Part shown: positions 50 through 62,379 of the stretch, in pieces
Layout of the letters: each line of letters starts with the position of its first letter
How positions within the stretch are numbered: the stretch's first letter is position 1
Virus record (IMG/VR): IMGVR_UViG_3300030673_000007
Strand: one strand, 5' to 3'
Length of the DNA stretch: 64,000 bases
From: an uncultured virus (IMG/VR IMGVR_UViG_3300030673_000007)
Lineage: Duplodnaviria > Heunggongvirae > Uroviricota > Caudoviricetes
The notes under the pieces: model-generated
Database searches by the model: none
Told to the model about the DNA's origin: nothing
What the model saw: the letters and a program-made list of their open reading frames with translations, nothing else
Translations under genes and position numbers: made by a program

Positions 50-78
50 ATCTTAGGACACACAGAGGCCCGTGTCAA
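50..78 (-). promoter_or_regulatory. Early sigma-A-type promoter
   Basis: TTGACA-N17-TAAGAT-AGAGAC-ATG; TTTCGAGAAA at 82-91. Confidence 0.85.
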
Positions 79-111
79 CTCTTTCGAGAAACACGGGCCG
101 GGTAGTTGGGG

Positions 112-396
112 TCAGTTGATCTGGATGAAGAGTGCACCGGGAGCGAACCCAGTGCCGTGGTACAGCTGCTCCCGGGTCATGGCCGGGGCGTCGTAGTTGT
201 TCGTCTCGATCATGATGTCCAGCATCCCGTCGAGGCGAGCGGTGAGGTAGGCGACGTCCGCCTTCGCCTTGCGGTAGACGGCGGTGTTCTTGGCGGTGTT
301 CCGTGTGAGCCACCGGGCCTCTGACAGCTTGGCGTCGAGGTCCTTGTACTTGCTGGAGATGGAGTCCAGCAGGGCCTTGGGGAGTGTGCTGCTCAT
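112..396 (-). CDS. Hypothetical protein (MSSTLPK...)
   Basis: ORF with phage-typical GC3 codon bias, abuts upstream gene. Confidence 0.75.
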   Translation of the reverse strand: MSSTLPKALLDSISSKYKDLDAKLSEARWLTRNTAKNTAVYRKAKADVAYLTARLDGMLDIMIETNNYDAPAMTREQLYHGTGFAPGALFIQIN

Positions 397-398
397 GA

Positions 399-524
399 CT
401 ACTTGCCTTCCGTGCAGGTGGAGCAGATGACCGTGACGGCCTTGGAGTAGGAGGGGAACGTGTGGACTGCGGTGGCGATGTTCTCGATCCGCCCGCATTG
501 GGGGCAGTGGAACTGGATGTTCAT
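399..524 (-). CDS. Small zinc-ribbon protein (41 aa)
   Basis: MNIQFHCPQCG...ICSTC, two CxxC pairs; purine-rich RBS upstream; not in ORF track. Confidence 0.65.
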   Translation of the reverse strand: MNIQFHCPQCGRIENIATAVHTFPSYSKAVTVICSTCTEGK

Positions 525-659
525 GGGGGGAACCTTCCTGTGTTGAGAGAGCCCTTCGCTCTGTAGCCCCTGCGCTGTTGATCAGACTCAGGGTTCCAGC
601 TCAGCATCCATGCCTTGCTGCCAGTGCTTGTCTTCGGGCTCTCTCTTGCTTATGTACCT

Positions 660-688
660 AGCTTAGGTCATGGGAGGGCCCGTGTCAA
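660..688 (-). promoter_or_regulatory. Early sigma-A-type promoter
   Basis: TTGACA-N17-TAAGCT; TTTCAAGAAA at 693-702. Confidence 0.85.
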
Positions 689-806
689 GCTATTTCAAGA
701 AATAGATCGAAGGAGTTTGGGGCAACCCTGCCCCTTCCCGCCCAGCTGGGAGGGCTTGTACCGTTTGTGCTGCGGGGCCCCCCGTACCCAACTAGAGAGG
801 CGCACT

Positions 807-1112
807 GTGGCGACTATCCACATCCACCTCCACCACGACTACCCAGACTCCATCGACAGAAAGCTGGACATCATCATGGCCGACCTCACCGCATTGCAGT
901 CCGCTGTCACTCAGGTCCTGTCCGAGATCGAGGACGCTGTTGCTGCCCTTGCCGATCTCTCCACGAAGGTTGCCAACGGCACCGTCGTACAGGCCGACAT
1001 CGATGCCATCACCGCCAAGCTCACCGGCGCGGTCACCTCGCTGGACTCCGCGGTCGACACCAACGACCCCGACCTCGCCGACACCGATGAGCCGCCTGTG
1101 GAACCCGTCTGA
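807..1112 (+). CDS. Coiled-coil hypothetical protein
   Basis: GTG after GAGAGG; heptad-like A/L/D-rich helix. Confidence 0.75.
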   Translation: MATIHIHLHHDYPDSIDRKLDIIMADLTALQSAVTQVLSEIEDAVAALADLSTKVANGTVVQADIDAITAKLTGAVTSLDSAVDTNDPDLADTDEPPVEPV

Positions 1113-1230
1113 CAGTTTCAGAATCTTCCTCAGTTCCCACGCAGGAGGATCCGCTGAACAAGGCGTACTAATCCCAGACAGGGCAAGGCCCCCGGTTCGA
1201 TGATGAGCCGGGGGCCGAGCTGTGTGTGGA

Positions 1231-1533
1231 TCAGGCTGCATAGGCATCGACCAGACCCGGGTTGAGGTAGGTGTGCTTCTGGAACAGGTGGAGGATCCAC
1301 CCGTCACGGACGACGTTGCCCTTGGCGTCCCACTGCTTGACCTCGATGCCCCCCATGATGTCTGCTCCCGGCCAGTAGCGCAGGCGGGCGCTGATGTCGG
1401 ACACGTTGCCGTCCCAGTACCTGATGGCGTCTTCCAGCTTGTCGAAGGTGGTGGGTTCGGGAAGCTCGATGGCTTCGACGATGGCGGTCAGCTCGATGCT
1501 GACCTTGTACTCGTTGCGGACTGGAGTGTTCAT
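1231..1533 (-). CDS. Hypothetical protein
   Basis: ORF with strong codon bias. Confidence 0.75.
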   Translation of the reverse strand: MNTPVRNEYKVSIELTAIVEAIELPEPTTFDKLEDAIRYWDGNVSDISARLRYWPGADIMGGIEVKQWDAKGNVVRDGWILHLFQKHTYLNPGLVDAYAA

Positions 1534-1536
1534 GGC

Positions 1537-1614
1537 TCAGACCTCCATGGTGCGGCGGGAGACGGTGATCCAGATGCCGAGGATCCGGATCCTGCGGGTG
1601 GTGGTGACCTTCAT
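1537..1614 (-). CDS. 25-aa peptide MKVTTTRRIRILGIWITVSRRTMEV
   Basis: Follows promoter and conserved GAAGGGCAACAGCC-ATG leader. Confidence 0.55.
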   Translation of the reverse strand: MKVTTTRRIRILGIWITVSRRTMEV

Positions 1615-1647
1615 GGCTGTTGCCCTTCCTTGATTGGGTATGTACCT

Positions 1648-1677
1648 AGCTTAAGGCATGTACCTAGCTTGTGTCAA
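1648..1677 (-). promoter_or_regulatory. Early sigma-A-type promoter with internal direct repeat
   Basis: TTGACA-N18-TAAGCT; AAGCTAGGTACAT occurs twice. Confidence 0.85.
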
Positions 1678-1692
1678 GTGGTTTTGAGAAAC

Positions 1693-1998
1693 TCAGTCGT
1701 GCTCCCAGTAGCTGCCGCCGTTGGGGCAGAACCCGTCCGTGTTCTCGAAGTCCGTGCGGCGCACGAGGCACCCGGTGTCCTTCACGTGGGTGCGTACGTC
1801 GGACAGGGCGAGCTTCCAGTCCATGGGGGCAGGCTCCTGTGCCGCCGCTGCGGCGAGCTGGGGTGTGTGAGTGGTCCTGCGGGAGCGGGCTACCACGATG
1901 GTCACGGTGGCCCACACGGCACAGAGCAGGGCGACCCCGGCATGTCCCATGGTCAGCAGGCCGATGGCCAGCGCGTACAGAACGAGGGAGAGCTTCAC
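1693..1998 (-). CDS. Membrane protein with Cys-containing C-terminus
   Basis: Two N-terminal hydrophobic segments; GTGA overlap. Confidence 0.7.
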   Translation of the reverse strand: MKLSLVLYALAIGLLTMGHAGVALLCAVWATVTIVVARSRRTTHTPQLAAAAAQEPAPMDWKLALSDVRTHVKDTGCLVRRTDFENTDGFCPNGGSYWEHD

Positions 1999-2210
1999 GA
2001 ACAGACCTTCTTCTTGAGGTGCTTGCGCCCGTGGTGCTTCATGAGAGCGATGAGGCGATCAGGGGTGGACTCGAAGTAGCTGATGCCATTGACGTCCGTG
2101 ACCCTGTAGACCGTGCCTGAGGGCACGAAGACGATGTTCAGGCCCATGAAGCGGTCGACCTTGATGCACTCGGGGTTGAGTGTGTAGTTCAGAGGGGGGG
2201 CTGTGTTCAT
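1995..2210 (-). CDS. Hypothetical protein, leaderless
   Basis: ATG 6 nt after -10 box. Confidence 0.75.
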   Translation of the reverse strand: MNTAPPLNYTLNPECIKVDRFMGLNIVFVPSGTVYRVTDVNGISYFESTPDRLIALMKHHGRKHLKKKVCS

Positions 2211-2216
2211 GTCTCT

Positions 2217-2245
2217 AGCTTAGGCCATGTAGCTGCCGCTGTCAA
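2217..2245 (-). promoter_or_regulatory. Early sigma-A-type promoter
   Basis: TTGACA-N17-TAAGCT-AGAGAC-ATG; TTTCAGGAAA at 2249-2258. Confidence 0.85.
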
Positions 2246-3167: not shown

Positions 3168-3260
3168 AGTTTATGGCATGTACCTAGCTTGTGTCAAGCG
3201 AATACTCGATCAATCTTTTTCTGGAAACGACTTGCTATACGCGCGGGCGTGTACTAAGCT
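3168..3260. promoter_or_regulatory. Divergent pair of early sigma-A-type promoters
   Basis: Minus: TTGACA-N18-TAAACT (3197-3168). Plus: TTGCTA-N17-TAAGCT (3232-3260). TTTCTGGAAA between them at 3218-3227. Confidence 0.8.
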
Positions 3261-3266
3261 AGAGAC

Positions 3267-3440
3267 ATGAACAAGCCGCAGCCCAGCAACCGGAAGTGCA
3301 CCGTCGCGACCATCACCGATGCAGCAGACGACATCGAGTTCACGTGGACCGAGTGGGCCGACGAGGACGTCATCGAAGCCGCAGAGGCAGCTGTCGAGGC
3401 CCTCAGGGCGCTCGCCAACACGATCCAGAACAGGAAGTGA
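3267..3440 (+). CDS. Hypothetical protein, leaderless (MNKPQPS..., 57 aa)
   Basis: ATG 6 nt after TAAGCT; not in ORF track. Confidence 0.65.
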   Translation: MNKPQPSNRKCTVATITDAADDIEFTWTEWADEDVIEAAEAAVEALRALANTIQNRK

Positions 3441-3442
3441 CC

Positions 3443-3685
3443 ATGAACGCGATCATCACCTCCCCGGGGGCTACGACCTACAAGGGCGAGACCTACCGGT
3501 TGGAGCGCAGGGAGATCTGGAGCCCCAGCTCGCGCACCGGCACCCGTGTGGTGTGGTGCTGGGAGATCAAGTCCGGCCCCGGGCGTGGGGACTACGGAGG
3601 CAAGTGCGGATCCAAGCGTGAGGCCGAGACCACGGTCAAGCGCGCGATCCGCGCCTACGCAGCAGAGGAGGCAGCCAAGAAGTGA
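3443..3685 (+). CDS. Hypothetical protein (MNAIITSPG...)
   Basis: AGGA RBS, codon bias. Confidence 0.7.
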   Translation: MNAIITSPGATTYKGETYRLERREIWSPSSRTGTRVVWCWEIKSGPGRGDYGGKCGSKREAETTVKRAIRAYAAEEAAKK

Positions 3686-3697
3686 GCCCAGCTCACG

Positions 3698-3731
3698 GCC
3701 CCTCGTTCCTTCGGGAGCGGGGGGCTTCTTC
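3698..3731 (+). terminator. Intrinsic terminator-like hairpin
   Basis: GCCCCTCGTTCC-TTCG-GGAGCGGGGGGC followed by TTCTTC. Confidence 0.6.
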
Positions 3732-3961
3732 ATGCCCAGCTGGAGCTGCACCGGTTTTCTGAACCAGCTCGGTGCAGGGATCCACGCACGCTCGTCGAGG
3801 CGGAGCTGCGCCCGCAGTGTTTCAGAATCTTCTCGGGCTCCCCTCCCAGTAGGGAACGCTCGAACAAGGCGCACTAATCACTCGCCACTAATCCGGAGCT
3901 GAACGTGGAAGACCCCCCGCTCCCGGTCGAAGGGGAGAGCGAGGGGCCTGTCCAGCGTAGC

Positions 3962-4159
3962 TCAGTCGAAGGGCCACACCAGCCCGGCACGCCTGATCGA
4001 GGCGCGGAGGTTCTTGTCTGCCCGGTGGTCGGAGGGAGTGAGGTGGAAGGACGTCGAGGTGATGCCGTCGGGGAAGCCGACCCACCAGCCGCAGTGCTTC
4101 CGCTTCATCGTGCACCCTTGGGCCTCCAGCGAGGCTGCAAGGGCTGCGTAGCGCTTCAC
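3962..4159 (-). CDS. HicA-like protein
   Basis: 65 aa basic protein with HLTPSDHRADKNLRASIRRAG, the signature of actinophage HicA-like proteins. Confidence 0.65.
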   Translation of the reverse strand: MKRYAALAASLEAQGCTMKRKHCGWWVGFPDGITSTSFHLTPSDHRADKNLRASIRRAGLVWPFD

Positions 4160-4371
4160 AGGAGGGGGGCTGCGTGGGCGAGGTCACCGACGGCTGCGAG
4201 GCGCTCCTGAATGCTCAGGGCGAGGTCGGAGTAGGGCTGCACGATCAGGCTGACCGGCTTGCGTCCCGGGGCTGCTGCCTTGAGGAGGAGCGTGTTGTCG
4301 GGACGGTGCCATTCGAGGATGGTGAGGTCGCCGTCGAGGTAGGTGGTGTCGGGTTCTTGGTAGCTGCTCAT
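4156..4371 (-). CDS. Hypothetical protein, leaderless
   Basis: ATG 6 nt after TACTCT. Confidence 0.7.
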   Translation of the reverse strand: MSSYQEPDTTYLDGDLTILEWHRPDNTLLLKAAAPGRKPVSLIVQPYSDLALSIQERLAAVGDLAHAAPLL

Positions 4372-4377
4372 AGGTAA

Positions 4378-4469
4378 AGAGTACCAAGCTAGGGACAGAC
4401 TGTCAAGGGTTATTTCAAGAAACTAATGTCCAGATTGGCTTGACTATGCGCGTGCGTGTGTACTAAGCT
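4378..4469. promoter_or_regulatory. Divergent pair of early sigma-A-type promoters
   Basis: Minus: TTGACA-N17-TACTCT (4406-4378). Plus: TTGACT-N18-TAAGCT (4440-4469). TTTCAAGAAA at 4413-4422. Confidence 0.8.
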
Positions 4470-6880: not shown

Positions 6881-6994
6881 ATCTCTTCCTCCACAGGGTG
6901 CGGGTGATGGCGGTGATCTGACAGAGGGAAGCAAGAACAAAAGCACCAGTCAGGAACCAGTTGGCCATTGCTCTCCCCCCAGAGTTGATACGCC

Positions 6995-7405
6995 TCAACC
7001 TCCCGTGAACTCACCATCGAGCTTCACGAACTCCCCGGGGTGCTTGACCTTCGTTGCGCCGTACTCGCGAAGAAGGCGGGACTCCTCAGAATCTTCCTGC
7101 ACTGGGTGGTGCCTGCGCCAGCAGTTGATGAAGTCGATCTCGGCCAGTGCGATGAGGGCCTCGAAGTCGGTGAGCTGAAGCCGGGCTGCGGCATCGACGG
7201 CGAGGTCGGCAAGGAGTGCCTCGGGCTTGCCTGCGTCGAACAGGATGACCATGGGCCTGCCGTTGGCCAGCTGGGCGTCGAGCCTGCTCACTTCCCCGGT
7301 GGAGCACCACCAGTAGTGCTTGACCCACACCACGCCGGAGGTGTCGAGGAGCACCGACGCATCGACCAGCTCGGCGAGATCGGCCTCGGAGATCACAACC
7401 CTCAC
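6995..7405 (-). CDS. Hypothetical protein
   Basis: ORF with GTGA overlap. Confidence 0.7.
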   Translation of the reverse strand: MRVVISEADLAELVDASVLLDTSGVVWVKHYWWCSTGEVSRLDAQLANGRPMVILFDAGKPEALLADLAVDAAARLQLTDFEALIALAEIDFINCWRRHHPVQEDSEESRLLREYGATKVKHPGEFVKLDGEFTGG

Positions 7406-8367: not shown

Positions 8368-8459
8368 GGTTGTTGATACGCCGGGGGAAGAAGGATCCGC
8401 AAGGCGGGTGCGTTCAGAATCATCTTCGGCGGGGCGGAGCCGGTGGGGCCATTCGTCCA

Positions 8460-9539: not shown

Positions 9540-9556
9540 GTTTGTTGATACGCCGT

Positions 9557-9856
9557 TCAGGGGGTTGAACGCACGGTGAGGGACGGGTTGATCGAGAGCA
9601 TCGCCTCGGCGTCCAGTGCGACGGCGGTACGGGCTCCCTGTGTGATCCGTGCCACCGAGTCCCGGGACAGTCCGGTGAGCTTCATGATGTTGCGCTCGGG
9701 GATGCCTGCTGCCTTGAGTTCGACCATGAGGGCATCGCGGTCTGCTACGGCGTCCCGGTAGGCGTTGCGGGCGTCGGTGACCGTCTCGGCCTGATCCTTG
9801 AGTTCCGACATCACCATGGCGATGGAGACGCGGTGGACTTGTTTTGTGAAAGCCAT
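9557..9856 (-). CDS. Helix-turn-helix DNA-binding protein
   Basis: RDALMVELKAAGIPERNIMKLTGLSRDSVARI; leaderless after TAGACT. Confidence 0.75.
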   Translation of the reverse strand: MAFTKQVHRVSIAMVMSELKDQAETVTDARNAYRDAVADRDALMVELKAAGIPERNIMKLTGLSRDSVARITQGARTAVALDAEAMLSINPSLTVRSTP

Positions 9857-12786: not shown

Positions 12787-12816
12787 ATCTTAGGACCATC
12801 AAGGCGGGCGTGTCAA
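12787..12816 (-). promoter_or_regulatory. Early sigma-A-type promoter
   Basis: TTGACA-N18-TAAGAT; TTTCCGGAAA at 12820-12829. Confidence 0.85.
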
Positions 12817-12835
12817 CTGTTTCCGGAAACCCGCC

Positions 12836-13321
12836 TCAGGCGGAGAAGAATCCCTCGTGCTCGGAGCAGTACGTTCCCGTGGCCGCAACCATGGCAGCCA
12901 TCACGAGCATCCCGGTACGGGAGGTCGGGCTGATGTCCTGCCCGAGCATGACGGCGATCATGTTGTCCTTGGTCACGCCCTTGTCGATGGAGCTGCACGT
13001 GGTGTGGCCCAGTGTGCGCAGGGAGGCCATCTCGGCTGCCGTCGGCGTCTCCTTGGACAGGATCGGGATCAGTGCATCGAACCTGTCGTCGGGGCTCTCA
13101 GACTCGACGGTGGCGTCCTCGACAGGAGCTGCCGCAGCCGTGGTGGCAGGCACTGCGGGGGCTGTCACCGCAGCGGTGACAGGGGCCGTGGTGGGCCTGC
13201 CCATGAGGGAGCCTGCTCCCATGAGCAGGGCAGCGAGCACCACCCCGAGGGCGAGCTTGACACCGCCACTCATCGGCTTCTTGGGAGCTGGTTCGGGCAG
13301 GGTGTAGTAGGGATTGGACAT
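12836..13321 (-). CDS. Membrane-anchored exported protein (DUF732-like C-terminus)
   Basis: TM segment, T/A/P linker, GHTTC...AATGTYC; GGAGG RBS. Confidence 0.7.
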   Translation of the reverse strand: MSNPYYTLPEPAPKKPMSGGVKLALGVVLAALLMGAGSLMGRPTTAPVTAAVTAPAVPATTAAAAPVEDATVESESPDDRFDALIPILSKETPTAAEMASLRTLGHTTCSSIDKGVTKDNMIAVMLGQDISPTSRTGMLVMAAMVAATGTYCSEHEGFFSA

Positions 13322-13367
13322 GGTGCCTCCTGTTGCGTTGACCTTGTTTTCTAAAACGTACTGGGTA

Positions 13368-14279
13368 CTACTCGGCGGAGCGTTCCTCGACGAAGTCGGA
13401 GACCTCATCCCACAGGCTGGAGACCATCCGGAGCTTGTCGCGGCCCTCGGACTGCTCGTCCTGCCGGAGCTGGAAGGTGGGCCGGTGGATGTAGGTGTCG
13501 ATCTCCTCGGTGATCAGGGCGTTCAGCGTGGCCGGATCAAGAGCGTCCAGCTCCCAGCTCTCGTCCCCGAAGCGCTCGATGTAGCCCTCGGCGCGGGAGT
13601 CGGTGAGCTTGGCCGGGTTCGGCGGCGGGCTGTACTGCTCGATCTGGTCATAGTTGAGCGCGATCCGCTTGACCGTGGTGCTGGCCCCGAAGAGCCGAAG
13701 GCGGTCCCGGATGTCCCGGGTCATGTCGATGCCGCTGGGGTCGTGGTCACCGAGGTGGACGACAACCATGTCCTGCCCCTCGTTCTCCCAGTACCGGTGG
13801 CGCATGGCGGCGGCGTGCATCTCCGACTGGGAGACGTAGCCACGGCAGGAGAAGTAGTTGCAGCCCCGGGCCTTGGCGGCGCGCTCGATGACTCCAGCGA
13901 GGGCTTCCTTCTCCACCCACACCTCGACGCGGGTGTCCTGCGTCTCCCACAGGTCGATGTAGAACTTGTCCACGACGGACTCGATGATGGCTGCCGGGTC
14001 GTCGTAGGTCTGGTTGCCTGCGAGGTACCGGGTGCGGTCCACGATGTAGTTCCAGTCCAGCAGACCGGCGCGACGGGCCTTGTCGATGACCGTGCCCAGC
14101 ATCTTGTACTGGCGCTGGTTGTTCGGGATCTCGCCCCGGGAGACGAACTGGTAGTAGAGCTGCCGGAGCGTCAGGTCGTAGCCCTGCGCGCGGTAGTCGG
14201 CGCAGATCTGGTTGGCGGTCTGGATGAGGGCGAGAGAGGTGCCGGTGGGGTTCCAGTTCTCGTACTTGATCTTGGCCAT
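13368..14279 (-). CDS. Topoisomerase VI-A/Spo11/JetD-like winged-helix plus TOPRIM protein
   Basis: TLRQLYYQ (catalytic-Tyr-type motif), VEVWVEKEAL, RGYVS, LGDHDPSG (DxD). Confidence 0.8.
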   Translation of the reverse strand: MAKIKYENWNPTGTSLALIQTANQICADYRAQGYDLTLRQLYYQFVSRGEIPNNQRQYKMLGTVIDKARRAGLLDWNYIVDRTRYLAGNQTYDDPAAIIESVVDKFYIDLWETQDTRVEVWVEKEALAGVIERAAKARGCNYFSCRGYVSQSEMHAAAMRHRYWENEGQDMVVVHLGDHDPSGIDMTRDIRDRLRLFGASTTVKRIALNYDQIEQYSPPPNPAKLTDSRAEGYIERFGDESWELDALDPATLNALITEEIDTYIHRPTFQLRQDEQSEGRDKLRMVSSLWDEVSDFVEERSAE

Positions 14280-14371
14280 GGTTGGCTCTCTTTGTCGAAA
14301 CGATGGTGGTCCCCGAGCCGAGCACGGGCTGCTCGGCTGCGTGAATGAATCTCGGCTCGGGGTGTGTCCTT

Positions 14372-14401
14372 ATCTTAGGACACGAATCAGTGCGGTGTCA
14401 A
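14372..14401 (-). promoter_or_regulatory. Early sigma-A-type promoter
   Basis: TTGACA-N18-TAAGAT. Confidence 0.8.
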
Positions 14402-14695
14402 CAGCTTGGGTGCCTTGCCCCGTGGGCGGTCGGCGAGGCGCTGGAGCACGGTGGCCCAGTTCTCGGCCTGCCATGCCTCCCATGCCCCTGCTCCGGCCTT
14501 GCTGACCACCTTGTGGCGGAAGACCTCCTCCAATGCGTGGTCGTGGTGGAACTTCAGGGCGTAGTCGACGTCGATCTCCACGTACTCCCGGCACTCGACG
14601 CACCACGCGAACGGAGGGTGCTCCCCGGCGTGAGCCACGAAGGCGCGGTCGACCGGGTGGTGGGTGCACTGCTCGGGCGGGATGCTCAGAATCAT
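14387..14695 (-). CDS. Hypothetical protein (CxH...CxxC)
   Basis: ORF, codon bias. Confidence 0.65.
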   Translation of the reverse strand: MILSIPPEQCTHHPVDRAFVAHAGEHPPFAWCVECREYVEIDVDYALKFHHDHALEEVFRHKVVSKAGAGAWEAWQAENWATVLQRLADRPRGKAPKLLTPH

Positions 14696-14698
14696 CTC

Positions 14699-14965
14699 TC
14701 AGCCGATCTTGGTGAAGCTGGTGAAGGTTCCGTCGGAGTGCTTGGCGGCGTGGTAGTCCGGTCCTTCGGTGGGGACCAGCTGGCCATCGACCTTGACCAG
14801 CCCAGCACCCTTGCGAGTGTTCCAGACCTTCAGGTCGAAGCTCGCGATGTTGGGATCGGCGAAGGCGTCGAGGACCATCTTGTCCACGACGTCCTTGCTC
14901 CGGAAGGTCAGCTCCCGGGTGGTCTGCTGGCCGTGGATGTGGGTGGCAGTGATCCGGATGAACAT
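14699..14965 (-). CDS. Hypothetical protein (MFIRIT...)
   Basis: TGATG overlap, AAGG RBS. Confidence 0.7.
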   Translation of the reverse strand: MFIRITATHIHGQQTTRELTFRSKDVVDKMVLDAFADPNIASFDLKVWNTRKGAGLVKVDGQLVPTEGPDYHAAKHSDGTFTSFTKIG

Positions 14966-15095
14966 CAACGCACCTTCTTCTTGGACCACTTGGAGCGGCG
15001 GGCGTCCTCGGTACGGCGCTCGCGCGCCTCGGCAGCCATGTCCTTGGCGTAGTCCCGGCCCTCGTCGAGGTACTCGGTGATCGGCTCGTTCATGG

Positions 15096-15344
15096 TCAGT
15101 TCCCCTTGGAGCTGCGCTGGGCTTCCCAGCTGGTGAGCTGGGTCTTCTGGATGTCTTCGGGGAGGGCGTCGAACTCGTCGACCTCCATGAGGTAGCCGGA
15201 CTTGAACTCGGAGCCCTGCGTGTCCAGCAGGGGACCGTAGGGGGTGACCGAGCCCTGCACACGCAGCATGTCGGTGATGGCAGCGGACCTGCCCGCGAGG
15301 AAGGCGGGGGTGGTCACAAGCGTCTGGTACACGTGGTTCGTCAT
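15096..15344 (-). CDS. Hypothetical protein, leaderless
   Basis: ATG 6 nt after TAAGAT. Confidence 0.75.
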   Translation of the reverse strand: MTNHVYQTLVTTPAFLAGRSAAITDMLRVQGSVTPYGPLLDTQGSEFKSGYLMEVDEFDALPEDIQKTQLTSWEAQRSSKGN

Positions 15345-15350
15345 GTCTCT

Positions 15351-15380
15351 ATCTTAGGACCTGTCTCTACCTTATGTCAA
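15351..15380 (-). promoter_or_regulatory. Early sigma-A-type promoter
   Basis: TTGACA-N18-TAAGAT; TTTCGGGAAA at 15385-15394. Confidence 0.85.
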
Positions 15381-15856
15381 GTAGTTTCGGGAAAGAGGTG
15401 ATCGTCGTTGCGGCACTGGAGCTTCCCGCAGACCTTGCAGCGATCCTCGTCCCGACCCGTGGTGTAGTCGTAGCGTCCCGGCTGCCCCTTCTTGGGGGAT
15501 GCTCCCCACTGTGCAGTCAGGGCGGAGTGCTCTTCCAGCCACTTGGCCTTGACCAGCTCCCACTGCCGGAGAGCCTCGCGAGCCTGCTCAGGGGTCGGGG
15601 GGACGTACCTGCGCTTGGACCTCTGGATGGTCTCCAGCAGGTCGTGCAGCCAAACCTCGTCAGCCTCATCCCACTCGTGGGGTGGAGTCCGGTCCCTGCT
15701 CGTAGCCCAGCGCAGGGCGAAGGTGGCCTCCTTGAGGAAGCGCCGCTCGATCCCGGCTGGGGTCTCAGCGAGCAGCTGCTCGGCCTCCTCAGCAGTCCCG
15801 GTCCAGAGGATGAGTCCCCAGACGTTGGACCAGTGCGGGCTGTCGAAGATGCTCAC
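15377..15856 (-). CDS. Hypothetical protein with C-terminal CxxC..C..H
   Basis: AAGGAGG RBS, GTGA overlap. Confidence 0.7.
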   Translation of the reverse strand: MSIFDSPHWSNVWGLILWTGTAEEAEQLLAETPAGIERRFLKEATFALRWATSRDRTPPHEWDEADEVWLHDLLETIQRSKRRYVPPTPEQAREALRQWELVKAKWLEEHSALTAQWGASPKKGQPGRYDYTTGRDEDRCKVCGKLQCRNDDHLFPETT

Positions 15857-16230
15857 AACCCCTCCTTGAGGATGTCGCGGATGCGGGTGAGCTGGCTGAG
15901 GGACGCACGAGCGTAGGCCTTGAGCCCGTAGTTGTGCTCGACCCCCAACGTGCGAAGCTCGTCGCGAACCTCCTGTGAGGCGGCGTACTCGGCCCACCCC
16001 TGCTCGGTGTAGGCCGTGCGGGAGGAGCCGAACTTGACCCGCTCGTCACCACCAGCGATGGTGAAGGCGTGCTCACTCCACTTGTCTGCCTTGCCGGTGG
16101 AGCTGGCGTAGAAGTACACCCGGGAGACCCTGCTGACGATCAGCCTCTCGGCATTCATCTTGCGCCCCATGTCGTCGTAGGCGTAGATGACCTGCCCGAC
16201 CTCGACGTGCATCTTGGGTCCGTCGATCAT
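15853..16230 (-). CDS. Hypothetical protein
   Basis: Start MIDGPK...; codon bias. Confidence 0.7.
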   Translation of the reverse strand: MIDGPKMHVEVGQVIYAYDDMGRKMNAERLIVSRVSRVYFYASSTGKADKWSEHAFTIAGGDERVKFGSSRTAYTEQGWAEYAASQEVRDELRTLGVEHNYGLKAYARASLSQLTRIRDILKEGL

Positions 16231-16231
16231 G

Positions 16232-16513
16232 TCAGAGCGCCTTGAAGGCTGTGGTGGCGGCGTCGACACGGGTGGCCGTACCGGGCAGCTTGAAGGTCAC
16301 CATGTGCCACACGAGGGGGCTCCCGATCTGGCTGGTGAGCATCCCGTAGAGGGCGATGGCTCCGGTCATCATGCTGTAGGCCTCACGGATCGCCGCCTTG
16401 GACACCCCGTAGCTGGGGTGGTCCCTGCGGTTGCTGACCCGGCTGAGCATGGTGGAGGCGAGGGCGCGGATCTCGCGCTCGGCGAGGATGGTCTGTGCTT
16501 CGTTGAGGTCCAT
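16232..16513 (-). CDS. Hypothetical protein
   Basis: ORF in tight operon. Confidence 0.7.
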   Translation of the reverse strand: MDLNEAQTILAEREIRALASTMLSRVSNRRDHPSYGVSKAAIREAYSMMTGAIALYGMLTSQIGSPLVWHMVTFKLPGTATRVDAATTAFKAL

Positions 16514-16515
16514 GG

Positions 16516-16917: not shown

Positions 16918-16923
16918 GTCTCT

Positions 16924-16952
16924 ATCTTAGGACTAGGTTGGGCAGATGTCAA
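16924..16952 (-). promoter_or_regulatory. Early sigma-A-type promoter
   Basis: TTGACA-N17-TAAGAT; TTTCAGGAAA at 16957-16966. Confidence 0.85.
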
Positions 16953-16958
16953 CACGTT

Positions 16959-17505: not shown

Positions 17506-17544
17506 GGTTCCTCCTGTTGTGCAAGCTGACCGCTTGATGTCTCT

Positions 17545-17574
17545 AGCTTAGGCCATGGAGATGTCCCAAGTCAA
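17545..17574 (-). promoter_or_regulatory. Early sigma-A-type promoter
   Basis: TTGACT-N18-TAAGCT-AGAGACATC. Confidence 0.8.
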
Positions 17575-19966: not shown

Positions 19967-20016
19967 ACCTACTGGTACGCCGCAGAACCGGGGATCCGCA
20001 GTCGATCTTCAGAGAC

Positions 20017-57822: not shown

Positions 57823-57899
57823 GGTCGATCTCCTTCAGAACGAGTTGGCAAGTGAACAGGTTCGAGTTCTTGCCTACCTCTGAAGATCGGCCTCAGCCC

Positions 57900-59817: not shown

Positions 59818-60299
59818 TTCCGGAGTCCTTCCAAGTATCGGAGCGCGGACTGAATCCTGCTCACTGAGTCCCGGAAAGCCCCCAGTCCGGTATTGCACGA
59901 GTAGCACAGTAGGCCTCGAACACAGGCCCCACAGGAACGCTCTCCGGGGCAACAGGAATGGTCATGATCTACTGCCAACCGACGGGGAAGGCCGGTCTTC
60001 TGGTGGACGGCTGTCTCCGGCTCCTTACAGACCGCACAGCACCCGTTCTGGGATTCGAGCAGCGCGTCGTACTGGGCAGGGGTGAGGCCGTACTTGGAGA
60101 GCAGGTGGTATCCGTGGAGGTAGTCAGGGTTGCCCCTGCGCCACTTGGCATGAGTCTCCGCCGTGGCCTCTCGCGTGCTCTCGTACTGAGCCGATGACCT
60201 CCTGTTGCAACAGCTGATGCACTCAGCTCGGTAGCCCTTGCGGTACTTGTAGAACTCGGTCAGGTCCTTGACCGCACCACACATGGTGCAGCGCTTCAC
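59814..60299 (-). CDS. Endonuclease VII-like homing endonuclease
   Basis: KYGLT..QY..LLESQNGCCAVC, LAVDHDH, VRGLLC..CNTGLG. Confidence 0.9.
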   Translation of the reverse strand: MKRCTMCGAVKDLTEFYKYRKGYRAECISCCNRRSSAQYESTREATAETHAKWRRGNPDYLHGYHLLSKYGLTPAQYDALLESQNGCCAVCKEPETAVHQKTGLPRRLAVDHDHSCCPGERSCGACVRGLLCYSCNTGLGAFRDSVSRIQSALRYLEGLRK

Positions 60300-60673
60300 T
60301 TCCGGAGTCCTTCCAGCATCGCTTCCACCCACAGGGGGTGCAAGTCAGCCAATGGTCTCATAAAGTCGTGGTCGCCACGGGCTGCGGACTTCCCCACCCA
60401 GTGGGTGCCCCGGCGCTTCTCGTAGATGGCGTAGTCGACCGGGCCAGCTCCGCCGTACTGGATCTCACCCTCCCACGTCTCTCCGCCTCCTGAGACTGAG
60501 ATCTTGCCGGACGCCTTCAGGGCTCCGGACTCCACGTGGACAGCGGCCTGAGTCTGGGCGAAGCCGAAGTCGAGCACAGCGTGCAGTGCCGCCTTGGCCT
60601 TCATGGTGGGCATCATCATGAGGCGGTCCAGCTCGCGCTCCACGTCGGACCAGTCGGTGGTGACCTCGATCAT
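60296..60673 (-). CDS. HK97 gp10-like head-tail protein
   Basis: VHVESGALKASG, DYAIYE, DFMRP. Confidence 0.7.
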   Translation of the reverse strand: MIEVTTDWSDVERELDRLMMMPTMKAKAALHAVLDFGFAQTQAAVHVESGALKASGKISVSGGGETWEGEIQYGGAGPVDYAIYEKRRGTHWVGKSAARGDHDFMRPLADLHPLWVEAMLEGLRK

Positions 60674-61122
60674 GGGACGAAGTCCTCAATGGGCTCTTCG
60701 GACGGCCAGTTCTCGCCGGTCAGCTCCTGACCGGTCTCGATGATCTGGACCTCGATGTGGTGCCTGTCGGCGAAGGCCACGACCTCGTCAGGGATCGAGC
60801 GGATCTCGAAGGTGCCAGCCACCGGGATCGCTCCGCGCTCGTTGGGGATGGTCACGATGCGGTCCCCGGCCCTGATGGGGGCGTAGGGGCCTGTGAGCAT
60901 CACGCCCACCCGGTCGGGTGCCTTGCCCGCGACCATGGCAGGGAGTGCGTCCTTGCCCTCGCGGATGAAGTTCATGTCGAGTCGGCACCGCAGGAACTGG
61001 AGAGCGTCGTTGATCGCCGGGTCCGGGTCGGTGGCCTGCGAGTAGGCCATGGTGGCGACACCGTCGTCAACGGTCAGCGTGAGTCGCTCGACCCGCACTG
61101 CGGAGTTGAACAGGTGCTCCAC
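60670..61122 (-). CDS. Head-to-tail stopper-like protein
   Basis: IRAGDRI, HHIEVQI; position. Confidence 0.7.
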   Translation of the reverse strand: MEHLFNSAVRVERLTLTVDDGVATMAYSQATDPDPAINDALQFLRCRLDMNFIREGKDALPAMVAGKAPDRVGVMLTGPYAPIRAGDRIVTIPNERGAIPVAGTFEIRSIPDEVVAFADRHHIEVQIIETGQELTGENWPSEEPIEDFVP

Positions 61123-61126
61123 GTCG

Positions 61127-61666
61127 TCACACCCCTTCGACGATCACCAAGGCGTTGGGGTCCCAGCCGAAGGTGGTCGAGAGGCGGCGGTCCACGGGGG
61201 ACAGGTACTCCACGTTTCCGGAAAGGTGTCCGGCGATGAAGGTGCCGTCGTGCTCGAACATCTCGATGCCGCCCCGCTGGAAGTCCCCGCTCGCGCGGTC
61301 ACAGACCGACAGCTGGCCGACGGCCATGTCGAACCACATGATGCCGGTCTCCAGCCCCTTCTGGGCAGCCTGAGCCACCTTCGAGTAGGAGTAGGAGCCG
61401 ATGGACTCGGAGTTGAACGGGGAGGCCTTGGCAGCCTGATACGGAGCGGAGAGGTGGATGGCGTCGGCCATGGAGATGATCGCGAAGTCAACCAGCTGCT
61501 GCTGGTCAGCCGTCAGCAGCTCGGGGTCGAAGATGCAGGTCCCGATCTTGAACAGCAGCATGGCCTGAGGGATGGCGGAGGAGGCGATGAACGTTTCAGG
61601 AAATGAGGCTGCGGGCCTGCCTGTGAACGCCGCGATCATCTCCCGGTCGTAGGTCTTGTATGCCAT
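61127..61666 (-). CDS. Head-to-tail adaptor-like protein
   Basis: SESIGSYSYS motif; position. Confidence 0.75.
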   Translation of the reverse strand: MAYKTYDREMIAAFTGRPAASFPETFIASSAIPQAMLLFKIGTCIFDPELLTADQQQLVDFAIISMADAIHLSAPYQAAKASPFNSESIGSYSYSKVAQAAQKGLETGIMWFDMAVGQLSVCDRASGDFQRGGIEMFEHDGTFIAGHLSGNVEYLSPVDRRLSTTFGWDPNALVIVEGV

Positions 61667-61684
61667 CCCTCAGGTTCCCTTCTG

Positions 61685-62287
61685 TCAGGCTCGCGGCAGC
61701 GGGACTGCCCGGCCACGCCGAGCATCCTGAGCGACCATGTCGTCATCGAACGTCTCGCCGGGGAAGGCCACGAACGGCCCCGGGCTGAAGTAGTGCTTGC
61801 CCCAGCGGCGGATCTGGGCGTTGGGGTCGTTGGCGAGATCGAGCCACGACTTGCCGGTGCGGTCCTGCGTGCGCTTGAAGGCGTCGCCGCCGATCTCGAA
61901 CTCCAGCTCCTGACCCCGGTACCAGTTCTCGCCGAAGGCCACGAAGCCGTCGTAGACGAAGTGGATCACGAACTTCTCGCCGTCCCCGGCCTTGGCGTAC
62001 TGGGTCGGGGAGTTCTCAGCGATGATGGCGTTGCGCTTGGCCATCTTGTCCTCAAGCTCCTTGATCCGGAGCTGAGCTGCGGTCAGCTCGACCGGCTCTT
62101 CCACGACGTCGAAGGAAGGCATCGGGGCGGAGAGCATGGCCTCCAGCTCGCGGATGCGGGCCTCTTCCGGGTCCTCGGGAGCCGTGTCTGCCGGTGCCTC
62201 AGTGACCGGCGTGTCGTCGGCTGTGAGGTCGAGCAGGTCGTCGAAGTTGTCCACCAGTGCGTCCGTTGGCTTCTTGGGGTCAGCCAT
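61685..62287 (-). CDS. Hypothetical protein of the head module
   Basis: GGGAGG RBS after late motif. Confidence 0.7.
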   Translation of the reverse strand: MADPKKPTDALVDNFDDLLDLTADDTPVTEAPADTAPEDPEEARIRELEAMLSAPMPSFDVVEEPVELTAAQLRIKELEDKMAKRNAIIAENSPTQYAKAGDGEKFVIHFVYDGFVAFGENWYRGQELEFEIGGDAFKRTQDRTGKSWLDLANDPNAQIRRWGKHYFSPGPFVAFPGETFDDDMVAQDARRGRAVPLPRA

Positions 62288-62379
62288 TGTTGTTGCCCTC
62301 CCGGGGTCTCTATTGAAGATCGGCCTGTAACCGCTTGGGACAATGGTACCGGAGTCCCTACCTTGGCGCACACAGCGAC

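What the first reader, a model, noticed from the sequence alone, without database searches (positions are those of the whole stretch)
50..62325. Three promoter classes and two phage sigma factors arranged as a transcriptional cascade
Seen: class I promoters (TTGACA-N17/18-TAAGMT) precede the small early genes, and one precedes the ECF-like sigma gene (36210-36239). Class II promoters (TGCG-N17-CGTAYCA) precede DNA-metabolism units, including the SNF2 helicase unit (42113-42140) whose next gene is the FliA/WhiG-like sigma. Class III motifs (GYCGATCTTC) precede lysis and virion genes. Established: CGTA -10 cores are typical of several ECF sigmas, GCCGAT is the sigma-28 -10 core, and Bacillus phage SPO1 uses a sigma cascade. 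Inference: host sigma-A -> phage ECF-like sigma (middle) -> phage sigma-28-like factor (late), with each sigma gene placed under the previous class. I do not know of such a circuit being mapped in an actinophage, but I cannot check the literature here.
Basis: partly seen in the sequence, partly recalled or inferred. Interest (0 to 1): 0.85.

Follow-up and report, generated by a model that had tools for sequence, protein, structure and literature searches.

The report
Two-sigma promoter relay in an actinophage
A large phage of high-GC Gram-positive bacteria carries two sigma factors of its own and three distinct, conserved promoter types, which most likely let it pass the host RNA polymerase from early to middle to late genes, although the wiring is read from sequence only and no transcript has been mapped.

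Summary
All three motif classes are real, far above chance and strand-specific (all genes and motifs lie on the minus strand). Class I is a sigma-A-type promoter of the small-gene arm. Class II is a bipartite cTGCG-N16-GGCGTAYCA promoter before replication and other non-virion genes. Class III is a -10-only GYCGATCTTC box before packaging, virion and lysis genes. Six related genomes (Microbacterium phage Magritte and five uncultured contigs), down to 28% protein identity, keep both sigma genes in the same order. Each independently shows a GGCGTA-type and a CGAT-type motif family. In 19 of 19 ortholog groups the class is the same across genomes. The 248-aa protein is a clear FliA-type sigma that keeps the residues reading GC-CGA. 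The 241-aa protein is a very diverged two-domain sigma, supported by fold, language-model neighbours and a weak sequence bridge. Which sigma reads which class, and the order host sigma-A, then ECF-like, then FliA-like, remain inferences (about 0.58). The promoter before the ECF-like gene is generic sigma-A-type, not class I. The site before the SNF2/FliA-like unit is degenerate but conserved in 6 of 6 genomes. This is a new variant of the SPO1-type cascade, testable in Magritte.

The parts
35394..36119 (-). Gene for the 241-aa ECF-like (two-domain sigma2-sigma4) sigma factor candidate, TTG start
   Evidence: TIGR02937 full-length but weak (E 0.0049, 16.5 bits, cutoff 42.9). AF2 model with helices 49-137 and 163-240. 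Foldseek and VIA-align top hits are ECF sigmas. The deep profile hits RpoE region 2 at E 6.5e-4, and Sigma70_r2 is found in 26 of 124 family members.
36120..36195 (-). Structured leader of the ECF-like sigma gene; its Shine-Dalgarno AAGGAG lies inside a 15-bp hairpin
   Evidence: RNA fold -38.8 kcal/mol, z -5.24, 0 of 200 shuffles as good. Equivalent leaders in G003, G004, Magritte and G005 have z -4.4 to -6.7.
36210..36239 (-). Sigma-A-type promoter candidate TTGCCA-N18-TATACT before the ECF-like sigma gene
   Evidence: It is the only sigma-70-type site found in 20001-40000. The hexamers are kept in G003 as TTGCGA / TACACT.
36260..36288 (-). Second sigma-A-type candidate TTGCAT-N17-TATGGT
   Evidence: Coordinates. 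G003 has TTGCAT-N17-TAGGGT at the same place.
39618..40364 (-). Gene for the 248-aa FliA/WhiG-like group 3 sigma factor; its ATG overlaps the SNF2 stop (ATGA)
   Evidence: Pfam r4_2 6.5e-14 and r2 3.2e-6. TIGR02479 1.3e-21. The family profile against E. coli FliA 6pmi_F gives 5.9e-26 over the full length. The -10 contact residues are kept.
40361..42112 (-). SNF2-family helicase gene, first large gene of the unit holding the FliA-like sigma gene (probable start TTG 42091 behind AGGAGG)
   Evidence: Pfam SNF2-rel_dom 3.4e-23 and Helicase_C 1.6e-13. The sequence around the start is shown.
42113..42140 (-). Degenerate class II promoter TGAG-N16-GCGTATAA before the SNF2 ribosome-binding site
   Evidence: Match to the relaxed pattern. 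GGCGTAY is kept at this place in 6 of 6 genomes.
42113..42271 (-). Small conserved ORF (about 52 aa, ...DPSYAIEMA...SGV*) between the tail fibre gene and SNF2
   Evidence: Translation. The same ORF is seen in all relatives. No Pfam family.
39585..39612 (-). Class II promoter, directly after the FliA-like sigma gene
37646..37673 (-). Class II promoter (TGCT at -35)
   Evidence: Orthologous site in G003.
32864..32891 (-). Class II promoter before the small ORF and DNA polymerase I
   Evidence: Orthologous site in G003.
29491..29518 (-). Class II promoter (CCGTACCA variant)
26529..26556 (-). Class II promoter inside the 3' end of the RecA-like gene, before the 388-aa gene
   Evidence: The downstream ortholog carries a class II site in 6 genomes.
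23186..23213 (-). Class II promoter, start codon 8 nt after GCGTAC
19973..20000 (-). Class II promoter before the pyrophosphohydrolase-like and NADAR genes, ATG 8 nt after GCGTAC
9546..9573 (-). Class II promoter before the SMC/AAA-like gene, GTG 8 nt after GCGTAT
   Evidence: Ortholog group in 3 genomes.
8374..8401 (-). Class II promoter, ATG 8 nt after GCGTAT
6986..7013 (-). Class II promoter (TGAG at -35)
62315..62324 (-). Class III box before a virion-module gene (ATG about 27 nt downstream, behind GGGAGGG)
   Evidence: Ortholog group in 4 genomes.
57882..57891 (-). Class III box before the major tail protein gene (57244-57822)
   Evidence: Ortholog group in 5 genomes, including Magritte gp33, which is annotated as major tail protein.
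24439..24448 (-). Class III box before the holin-like gene (23865-24434)
23855..23864 (-). Class III box before gene 23275-23814
   Evidence: Also present in G003.
21732..21741 (-). Class III box before the endolysin gene (20227-21588)
38329..38338 (-). Class III-like word inside the DnaB gene; function doubtful
   Evidence: Kept only in the close relative G003, where the coding sequence is 92% identical.
12787..17573 (-). Five class I (sigma-A-type) promoters: 12787-12816, 14372-14401, 15351-15380, 16924-16952 and the variant 17545-17573
50..2245 (-). Four class I promoters: 50-78, 660-688, 1648-1677, 2217-2245
3232..4469 (+). Two class I variants on the plus strand (3232-3260, 4440-4469) before plus-strand genes

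Best explanation
The window is about 60% of a lytic siphophage genome of roughly 104-115 kb, related to Microbacterium phage Magritte, that runs a three-step transcription programme with two sigma factors of its own.

Step 1 (inferred). Host RNA polymerase with the primary sigma reads the class I promoters of the small-gene arm, TTGACA-N17/18-TAAGMT, many of which start leaderless mRNAs. It also reads a generic sigma-A-type promoter before the 241-aa ECF-like sigma gene. That gene's mRNA carries a leader that hides its ribosome-binding site.

Step 2 (inferred). The ECF-like sigma directs the polymerase to the bipartite class II promoters, cTGCG-N16-GGCGTAYCA. These lie before replication, recombination and nucleotide-metabolism genes and before the unit of small ORF, SNF2 helicase and FliA-like sigma.

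Step 3 (inferred). The FliA-like sigma reads the class III boxes (GG)GYCGATCTTC, an extended -10 of sigma-28 type with no -35 element. These lie before packaging, head, tail and lysis genes.

What is shown: the motifs, their strand, their placement and their conservation; the two sigma genes; and the retention of the sigma-28 contact residues. What is inferred: that the motifs fire, in which order, and with which sigma.
For: (1) The motif classes are far above chance and strand-specific. In the near-identical 104-kb contig G002, class III occurs 10 times forward and 1 time reverse, with 0/0 for the reversed-pattern control.

(2) The gene sets are coherent.
- In G002, 9 of 11 G[CT]CGATCTT sites lie before packaging, virion or lysis genes. 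One lies inside the scaffold-like gene and one inside DnaB.
- The first class III site marks the switch from the clamp and clamp-loader genes to the packaging module.
- Class II sites lie before replication-type and unknown genes.
- Sigma-70-type sites number 8 against 1.6 expected in 1-20000, but 1 against 2.0 expected in each of the next two 20-kb stretches.

(3) Geometry of a -10 element.
- ATG or GTG begins 8-9 nt after CGTA in 27 of 62 class II sites.
- ATG or GTG begins 8-10 nt after CGAT in 26 of 65 class III sites, pooled over the genomes.
- I estimate about 2 per offset by chance.
- Other sites have longer leaders with a normal ribosome-binding site.

(4) Class II has a -35-like element at a fixed distance in all 6 genomes tested.

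(5) Phylogeny.
- SNF2, FliA-like sigma, DnaB and ECF-like sigma keep the same order in all 6 genomes that cover the region.
- De novo 9-mer enrichment in G004, G005 and G007 recovers GGCGTAT-type and/or CGATA-type words without being told the motif.
- Magritte gives gGyCGATATCCCTG 11 times, all on the coding strand.
- In 19 multi-genome ortholog groups downstream of sites, 8 are class III only, 11 are class II only and 0 are mixed.

(6) The late sigma.
- The family profile matches FliA structures best: 6pmi_F at 5.9e-26, with SigA at 1e-13.
- It keeps Y88, R92, D99, D105 and R109. These align with P. aeruginosa sigma-28 Y76, R80, D87, D93 and R97, which read A-11, G-12 and the GC extended -10 of GCCGATAA (PMC12784957, passages).

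(7) The middle sigma.
- There are separate sigma2 and sigma4 hits at rmsd 2.1-3.9 A.
- Language-model neighbours are mostly sigma-70-family clusters.
- The deep profile hits RpoE region 2 at 6.5e-4, and Sigma70_r2 is found in 26 of 124 members.

(8) Wiring.
- GGCGTAY sits about 7 nt before the SNF2 ribosome-binding site in 6 of 6 genomes.
- Sigma-A-type hexamers lie before the ECF-like gene.
- The one sigma-70-type site before the FliA-like gene is not conserved.
Against: - No transcript data of any kind were available.
- Class III has no -35 element in any of 7 genomes, whereas sigma-28 uses TCTAAAG/TAAA and the phage sigma keeps a strong region 4. The residue aligned with the -35 reader Q228 is variable in the phage family. 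That fits -35 independence, but it is also a departure from FliA.
- The class II -35 element (cTGCG/cTTG) lacks the AAC core that I recall as typical of ECF promoters.
- No class II site lies before the ECF-like gene itself, so the autoregulation usual for ECF sigmas is absent.
- The SNF2 site is degenerate and overlaps the codons ...GGC GTA TAA of a conserved small ORF.
- One class III word lies inside DnaB, and one lies on the opposite strand at 20001-20010.
- No terminator-like site was found between the tail fibre gene and SNF2, so late read-through could also feed the FliA-like gene.
Confidence: 0.58

Rival explanations
1. Swapped pairing. The FliA/SigF-like sigma reads the bipartite class II promoters. 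The cTTG...GGCGTAT arrangement is loosely like the GTTT...GGGTAT promoters of SigB/SigF-type group 3 sigmas (recalled). This sigma would then boost its own operon. The ECF-like protein would read the late CGAT boxes.
For: - The FliA-like protein also scores with the SigB/F/G model (5.6e-15) and has a well-kept region 4, which would suit a promoter with a -35 element.
- The class II-like box before its own operon would then be an autoregulatory loop.
- The ECF-like gene has sigma-A-type hexamers and a gated leader.
Against: - CGA at -13 to -11 with a GC extension is the sigma-28 signature, and the residues that read it are kept in the FliA-like protein.
- ECF sigmas as known depend on a -35 element (recalled), and class III has none.
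- A late sigma made directly from a host-type promoter gives no obvious delay.
Confidence: 0.12
2. One or both classes are not read by a phage sigma. A host alternative sigma, or host sigma-A helped by a phage activator bound at the box, fires them. One or both phage sigma-like proteins would then do something else, such as host shut-off, competition for core polymerase or acting as a DNA-binding regulator.
For: - No dependence on either sigma was tested.
- Magritte's annotators call both proteins only 'DNA binding protein'.
- -10-only promoters served by activators are known for other phages, for example Mu C and RinA (abstracts listed).
- The C-terminal domain of the ECF-like family matches many generic HTH families.
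Against: - The same two cores persist in phages of 55% to 65% GC, which probably have different hosts and all carry the two sigma genes.
- The boxes lie at -10 distance from leaderless starts, not at activator distance.
- Neither core fits the TAnnnT -10 of actinobacterial sigma-A (consensus recalled).
Confidence: 0.15
3. The boxes are not promoters. They would be start-associated sequences acting on RNA (translation initiation, processing or stability), like the SAS/ESAS motifs described for Cluster K mycobacteriophages and Cluster EF Microbacterium phages.
For: - Many boxes lie at a fixed short distance from start codons.
- Such motifs of unknown role are reported in Microbacterium phages (PMC7302621, passages).
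Against: - The boxes do not look like ribosome-binding sites.
- About 60% of sites have no start codon at the fixed 8-10 nt offset, and several of these have longer leaders (25-145 nt) with a separate Shine-Dalgarno sequence.
- Class II has a second element 16-17 nt upstream at fixed spacing.
- Two sites lie inside upstream genes (26529 in the RecA-like gene, and the internal scaffold-gene site).
Confidence: 0.05

Closest known systems
Bacillus phage SPO1 cascade (host sigma-A, then gp28, then gp33/gp34)
   Same: Early genes use host-type promoters. A phage sigma made early reads middle promoters, and the late sigma is made from the middle class (abstract of PMC13401047; details recalled).
   Different: The host phylum differs (Actinobacteria, not Firmicutes). 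The sigmas are unrelated: an ECF-like two-domain protein and a single-chain FliA-like protein, instead of gp28 and the two-part gp33/gp34. Many transcripts are leaderless. Nothing here has been measured.
phiEco32 gp36 (with gp79) and phage 7-11
   Different: phiEco32 has one sigma and a helper. Here there are two sigmas and no recognised gp79 homolog. The promoter sequences are unrelated.
Bacterial sigma-28 (FliA / WhiG) and its GCCGATAA promoters
   Same: Full-length similarity, the same -10 core CGA with a GC extension at the same distance from the start, and retention of the contact residues.
   Different: It scores below the family cutoff (77 against 190 bits). There is no TAAA -35 element, the Q228 equivalent is variable, the phage protein has a 10-14 residue insertion in region 2, and no FlgM/RsiG-type partner was recognised.
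T4 late transcription (gp55 at the TATAAATA box)
   Same: Late promoters consist of a single -10-type box without a -35 element (recalled; abstracts).
   Different: gp55 lacks region 4 and needs gp33 and the sliding clamp. The phage sigma here has regions 2, 3 and 4.
Microbacterium phages of clusters EC and EI (one sigma gene plus repeated intergenic motifs)
   Same: Actinophages of the same host genus with an annotated sigma gene and 5-12 oriented intergenic repeats 21-30 bp before start codons, whose function is stated to be unknown (PMC7302621, passages).
   Different: They have a single sigma, a different motif and no stated link between sigma and motif. The protein searches found no relative of the present sigmas among phage records other than Magritte, apart from three very distant (20-29% identity) unannotated 'Bacteriophage sp.' records for the FliA-like protein.

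Membership tests
Group 3 sigma, FliA/WhiG subfamily (TIGR02479) | Regions 2, 3 and 4 in one chain, alignable over the full length to FliA | tested here: met
   Profile positions 10-228 align with 6pmi_F residues 13-233 at 5.9e-26. FliA chains rank above all SigA chains. Pfam r2 and r4 hits.
Group 3 sigma, FliA/WhiG subfamily (TIGR02479) | Score above the curated NCBIfam cutoff | tested here: not met
   77.4 bits against a cutoff of 189.6.
Group 3 sigma, FliA/WhiG subfamily (TIGR02479) | Residues that read the -10 and extended -10 of GCCGATAA (P. aeruginosa Y76, R80, D87, D93, R97) | tested here: met
   Window protein Y88, R92, D99, D105, R109. D99, D105 and R102 are invariant in 14 of 14 family members, and R109 is R in 13 of 14 and K in one. 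Residue roles come from PMC12784957 (passages).
Group 3 sigma, FliA/WhiG subfamily (TIGR02479) | Cognate promoter with a TAAA-type -35 element, read by region 4.2 (S224, Q228) | tested here: not met
   No information content upstream of the class III box in 7 genomes. The Q228 equivalent is variable: V, E, T, A, S or Q.
Group 3 sigma, FliA/WhiG subfamily (TIGR02479) | Control by an anti-sigma (FlgM, RsiG) | not tested
   The small neighbouring ORFs 39366-39560 and 39113-39364 have no Pfam family.
Group 4 (ECF) sigma (TIGR02937) | Two-domain sigma2-sigma4 architecture without sigma3 | tested here: met
Group 4 (ECF) sigma (TIGR02937) | Significant sequence match to the family model | tested here: not met
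   16.5 bits against a cutoff of 42.9, E 0.0049. The deep profile reaches RpoE region 2 only at 6.5e-4. Sigma70_r2 is found in 26 of 124 relatives, with best E 6e-6.
Group 4 (ECF) sigma (TIGR02937) | Bipartite promoter with a CGT-type -10 and an AAC-type -35 (consensus recalled) | tested here: inconclusive
   Class II is bipartite with a CGTA -10 and fixed spacing, but its -35 is cTGCG/cTTG, with no AAC. The assignment of class II to this protein is itself inferred.
Group 4 (ECF) sigma (TIGR02937) | Autoregulation from its own promoter type and a co-transcribed anti-sigma | tested here: not met
   No class II box lies upstream of the gene in 6 genomes; there are sigma-A-type hexamers and a structured leader instead. 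The next gene is a clamp-loader-like ATPase.
SPO1-type phage sigma cascade | Each sigma gene lies behind a promoter of the preceding class | tested here: inconclusive
   ECF-like gene: a generic sigma-A-type site. FliA-like gene: a degenerate class II box kept in 6 of 6 genomes but overlapping a coding end.
SPO1-type phage sigma cascade | Temporal order of the classes and dependence on the sigmas | not testable with these tools
   No RNA holder was listed for the stretch asked.

The most novel reading that the evidence does not exclude
A whole lineage of 100-136-kb actinophages runs a self-contained sigma relay of a kind not described outside Firmicutes phages. It would have three elements:
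- A middle sigma from a large, unannotated family (436 representative clusters) of extremely diverged ECF-like proteins, whose synthesis is gated by a leader that hides its own ribosome-binding site.
- A late sigma derived from sigma-28 that has given up the -35 element and starts leaderless late mRNAs from an extended GC-CGAT box.
- Possibly a third regulator that binds the highly over-represented palindrome TTTC-N2-GAAA next to the early promoters.
Probability: 0.4. Interest if true: 0.75.

Novelty: new variant of a known kind. Interest (0 to 1): 0.62.

Why it matters
How actinobacteriophages time their genes is mostly unknown. Published surveys note sigma genes and unexplained intergenic repeats without linking them (PMC7302621, passages). 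A survey of phage sigma factors found several sigma genes per genome mainly in Firmicutes phages (bioRxiv 10.1101/2021.11.12.468384, passages).

Here the full candidate circuit can be read from sequence, is conserved in seven genomes, and includes a cultivated phage (Magritte on M. foliorum), so every step can be tested directly. It would give:
- two orthogonal sigma/promoter pairs for high-GC Gram-positive hosts;
- a natural case of a sigma-28 relative working without a -35 element;
- a name for a large family of phage proteins now annotated at best as 'DNA binding protein'.

Tried and rejected
- Megablast of 36000-48000 against annotated phages found no match. Relatives were reached only through proteins.
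- No whole genome is held for the window. I used the 99%-identical contig G002, whose right arm differs in places from the window.
- RNA evidence: no RNA holder was listed for 19900-29600, so no reads could be laid.
- Profile-profile comparison of the two sigma families showed no similarity (probability 1.3%). The shallow 10-sequence profile against solved structures was not significant (RpoE at 0.056).
- Rfam at gathering thresholds found nothing on the whole window.
- Sigma-70-type site 40596-40569, inside SNF2 and about 205 nt before the FliA-like gene: rejected as a promoter, because its -10 is not kept in G003, G004, Magritte or G006.
- A sigma-A-type promoter before the small ORF upstream of SNF2: the hexamers TTGCGA-N16/17-TAnnAn fail the T at position 6 and were not called by the scan. 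This is left open.
- A TAAA-like -35 element for class III was sought in 7 genomes and not found.
- The leader fold of G006 (L012) gave z -0.16, but I had set its coordinates wrongly, so it counts as not examined.
- The exact class III string is absent from the right context in Magritte. The relation appeared only through de novo enrichment.
- Literature searches for a mapped two-sigma circuit in actinophages found none. Only the held library was searched. Supplements and figures of PMC7302621 (motif alignments in its S10 Fig) were not seen.

Full report
WHAT THE WINDOW IS

The window has 61-68% GC. By third-position GC analysis, almost all genes lie on the minus strand, so the phage reads from 64000 down to 1. 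In that order Pfam and PHROGs give:
- virion genes: tail assembly chaperone, 1471-aa tape measure protein, 1570-aa fibre-like protein ending at 42335;
- an SNF2 helicase (40361-42112);
- a sigma-70-family gene (39618-40364);
- DnaB;
- a 241-aa gene with no family (35394-36119);
- a clamp-loader-like ATPase, DNA polymerase I and a RecA-like recombinase;
- a holin-like gene and an endolysin;
- an arm of mostly small genes of unknown function.

Megablast found no annotated phage. Protein searches found one clear relative, Microbacterium phage Magritte (133 kb). Its gp47 and gp60, both annotated 'DNA binding protein', are 42% and 34% identical to the two window proteins. Three very distant (20-29% identity) unannotated 'Bacteriophage sp.' records also matched the FliA-like protein. 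A 104-kb viral contig (G002) is 99% identical over the sigma region and holds the window in the opposite orientation. Five further viral contigs (G003-G007, 60-136 kb, four rated complete) are relatives at 28-59% identity of the 241-aa protein.

CHECK OF THE OBSERVATION

- The exact class I pattern has 8 hits (0.01 expected), all on the minus strand.
- The exact class II pattern has 7 hits (0.02 expected), all on the minus strand.
- The exact class III pattern has 7 hits (0.33 expected): 6 minus and 1 plus.
- A relaxed class II pattern (TG-N18-GCGTAYMA) has 10 hits, all minus, against 0.11 expected.
- With flanks, class I is TTGACA-N17/18-CCTAAGMTAGAGAC, often running straight into ATG.
- Class II is yTGCGk-N16-GCGTAYCA(GTAAGT).
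- Class III is (G)GYCGATCTTC with nothing conserved upstream.
This is a good generic sigma-70-type site, but not the class I consensus.

ARE THE MOTIFS PROMOTERS?

Four lines of evidence bear on this.

1. Placement.
- In G002, 9 of 11 G[CT]CGATCTT sites on the coding strand lie before genes of the packaging, head, tail and lysis modules. One lies inside the scaffold-like gene and one inside DnaB.
- The first site stands exactly where clamp, ATPase and clamp-loader genes (which have class II sites) give way to the packaging module.
- Sigma-70-type sites are enriched only in the small-gene arm: 8 against 1.6 expected in 1-20000, and 1 against 2.0 expected in each of the next two 20-kb stretches.

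2. Geometry.
- Pooled over the genomes, an ATG or GTG begins 8-9 nt after CGTA in 27 of 62 class II sites.
- An ATG or GTG begins 8-10 nt after CGAT in 26 of 65 class III sites.
- This puts the cores at about -13 to -10 of leaderless mRNAs.
- Other sites have leaders of 25-145 nt with an ordinary ribosome-binding site. That argues against a role in translation.

3. Architecture.
- Class II has a second conserved element, with an almost invariant T, at a fixed 16-17 nt upstream in all six genomes tested.
- Class III has none in seven genomes.

4. Conservation.
- A motif-blind search for over-represented 9-mers gave GGCGTATCAC and GGCCGATATCACA in G004, TGGTCGATAGT in G005, and GCGATAGTAG and AGGCGTATACAT in G007. 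All are strongly biased to the coding strand.
- In Magritte the top words include GTTAGCGCGTA(YCAC) and CGATATCCCTGA, the latter with 11 copies, all on the coding strand.
- Taking the first gene downstream of each site and clustering the proteins gave 19 groups present in two or more genomes. Eight carry only class III sites, eleven carry only class II sites, and none is mixed.
- Class III groups: the first gene of the packaging module and the major tail protein in 5 genomes each; the scaffold-like gene in 4 genomes, with an internal site at offset about 510-535 in three of them.
- Class II groups: the 388-aa gene after RecA in 6 genomes.
- G002 and G003 are close relatives and do not count as independent. 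The other lineages are far apart.

THE TWO SIGMA PROTEINS

The 248-aa protein:
- It has Pfam region 2 and region 4 hits. Its best NCBIfam model is FliA_WhiG (1.3e-21, below the cutoff).
- As a 14-sequence profile it matches E. coli FliA over the full length at 5.9e-26, ahead of every SigA chain.
- A structural paper on P. aeruginosa sigma-28 (PMC12784957, passages read) places the -10 element at (-15)GCCGATAA(-8). R97 reads the GC extension, A-11 is flipped onto Y76, R80 is on G-12, and D87 and D93 lie nearby.
- With the chain numbering offset of 5 that I derived from the printed alignment, these align with Y88, R92, D99, D105 and R109 of the window protein. All are conserved in the family.
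- The residue aligned with Q228, which reads the -35 element, is variable. This matches the absence of a -35 element in class III.

The 241-aa protein:
- By sequence it is only weakly sigma-like (TIGR02937 E 0.0049 over its whole length; RpoE 0.3).
- A model built on 10 homologs (pLDDT 69.8) has two helical domains.
- Foldseek's 48 listed rows are sigma factors or chain F of initiation complexes, mostly ECF, except two whose chain identity I could not tell (9a4r_A, 9n9q_C). The best E-value is 1.6e-3.
- Language-model neighbours are mostly sigma-70-family clusters (score 0.95-0.96).
- The family is large: 436 representative clusters at E up to 0.001.
- A 124-sequence profile reaches RpoE region 2 at 6.5e-4.
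- Sigma70_r2 is the Pfam family matched by most members (26 of 124, best 6e-6). The C-terminal domain matches assorted HTH families.
- I take it as a diverged two-domain sigma with about 0.88 confidence.

THE WIRING

- SNF2, FliA-like sigma, DnaB and the ECF-like sigma keep this order in all six genomes that cover the region.
- The FliA-like gene overlaps the SNF2 stop by ATGA.
- Between the tail fibre gene and SNF2 lies a small conserved ORF ending ...GGC GTA TAA. The word GGCGTAY is kept in 6 of 6 genomes about 7 nt before the SNF2 ribosome-binding site, while the surrounding DNA has diverged. This is a footprint in favour of a class II -10 element, but coding constraint on the ORF's end cannot be excluded.
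- The single sigma-70-type site before the FliA-like gene (40596-40569) is not conserved.
- Before the ECF-like gene, the window and G003 share two sigma-A-type hexamer pairs. The other genomes have TAnnnT candidates, which is weak evidence because the word is short.
- In all, the pairing of the ECF-like sigma with class II and the FliA-like sigma with class III rests on four things: the match of CGTA to -10 elements of ECF sigmas (recalled, for example B. subtilis sigma-W); the match of GC-CGA to sigma-28 together with the kept contact residues; the bipartite versus -10-only architectures; and the position of the FliA-like gene behind a class II box. None of these is a measurement.

A NEW ELEMENT OF THE CIRCUIT

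- The leader of the ECF-like gene folds much better than shuffled controls in the window, G003, G004, Magritte and G005 (z -4.4 to -6.7, 0 of 200 shuffles each).
- In G003, G004, Magritte and G005 an upstream CCUCCUG pairs with the gene's own CAGGAGG. In the window the AAGGAG lies inside a 15-bp hairpin.
- The sequences differ between genomes, but the architecture is kept.
- This suggests that translation of the first phage sigma is gated, which could set the delay between early and middle transcription (inference).

COMPARISON WITH WHAT IS KNOWN

- The logic is that of SPO1 (abstract of PMC13401047; details recalled).
- The first sigma resembles phiEco32 gp36 in being an extremely diverged ECF-like phage sigma (PMC12276001 abstract).
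- The late promoters resemble sigma-28 promoters in their -10 half and T4 late promoters in lacking a -35 element.
- The Magritte genome paper (whole text read) mentions neither sigma factors nor promoters.
- The Microbacterium phage survey notes single sigma genes in clusters EC and EI, and oriented intergenic repeats of unknown function (passages).
- A survey of phage sigma factors reports several sigma genes per genome mainly in Firmicutes phages (passages).
- Six searches of the held library found no mapped two-sigma circuit in an actinophage. Subscription-journal papers are not covered.
It is not independent evidence, but its claims were re-derived here on this window.

VERDICT

- It is a new variant of a known kind.

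Noticed in passing
window 36120-36195 (-); equivalent leaders in L008, L010, L002 (Magritte), L011: The mRNA leader of the ECF-like sigma gene forms a stable structure that hides the gene's own Shine-Dalgarno sequence. An upstream CCUCCUG pairs with CAGGAGG in four relatives. z is -4.4 to -6.7, with 0 of 200 shuffles as good. Rfam at gathering thresholds finds nothing in the window.
   Followed up: partly
window, 26 sites, e.g. 82-91, 693-702, 2249-2258, 12820-12829, 15385-15394, 16957-16966, 26416-26425, 40251-40260, 45156-45165: The palindrome TTTCNNGAAA occurs 26 times against 0.15 expected (G002 35, G003 19, G004 11). The N1 spacing is also enriched, but N0, N3 and N4 are not. It lies 5-6 nt upstream of the -35 element of 8 of 11 class I promoters. 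Elsewhere it lies inside genes, using the rare codons TTT and GAA. The binder is unknown; it may be a regulator of the early promoters.
   Followed up: partly
window, 12 sites on the minus strand, e.g. 18713-18720, 14686-14693, 8414-8421, 7086-7093, 38843-38850: The word GA(W)GATTCTGA occurs 12 times against 0.44 expected. In most cases it is in frame as E/D-D-S-E with the rare codon TCT. Magritte has GATTCGGAG enriched in the same way. It may be a short acidic peptide motif or a DNA/RNA signal; this is not resolved.
   Followed up: no
G002 (L026) 24865-24873; Magritte L001 18889-18898; G004 56783; G007 88687: A class III box lies inside the scaffold/protease-like gene, about 510-535 nt after its start, in three genomes that also have the upstream box. 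It is followed by an in-frame start giving a C-terminal product of about 190 aa. This looks like a conserved internal late promoter for a shorter protein form.
   Followed up: partly
window 20001-20010 (+): One class III word lies on the opposite strand, directly abutting the -35 element of the class II promoter at 19973-20000 and pointing back into the end of the lysis unit. It is kept in G002. It could be an antisense start or chance.
   Followed up: no
L008 1373-1690 and 2486-4132: In relative G003 the SNF2 helicase matches in two pieces about 800 nt apart, as if interrupted by an inserted element (intein or homing endonuclease gene). L013 has an extra HNH-like ORF between SNF2 and the FliA-like gene.
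   Followed up: no
window 59814-60332 (-) and 33870-34469 (-): Two ORFs with lower third-position GC, lying in apparent 'gaps', are nuclease genes. One is an endonuclease VII family protein (Pfam 2.7e-21). The other is a weak HNH / His-Me homing endonuclease (4.7e-4). They are probably mobile inserts within the virion and replication modules.
   Followed up: partly
window 42113-42271 (-): A small ORF (about 52 aa, motif DPSYAIEMA, ending SGV) is conserved in all six relatives between the tail fibre gene and SNF2. It has no Pfam family. In Magritte it is gene 45, annotated as hypothetical.
   Followed up: partly
window 20167-20226 (-): Directly after the endolysin gene lies a long GC-rich hairpin (GCCCTGACTCCCC...GGGGAGTCAGGGC). 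It is a likely terminator of the lysis unit, just ahead of the class II promoter at 19973-20000. The consensus terminator scan, which requires a T run, was not run over this stretch.
   Followed up: no
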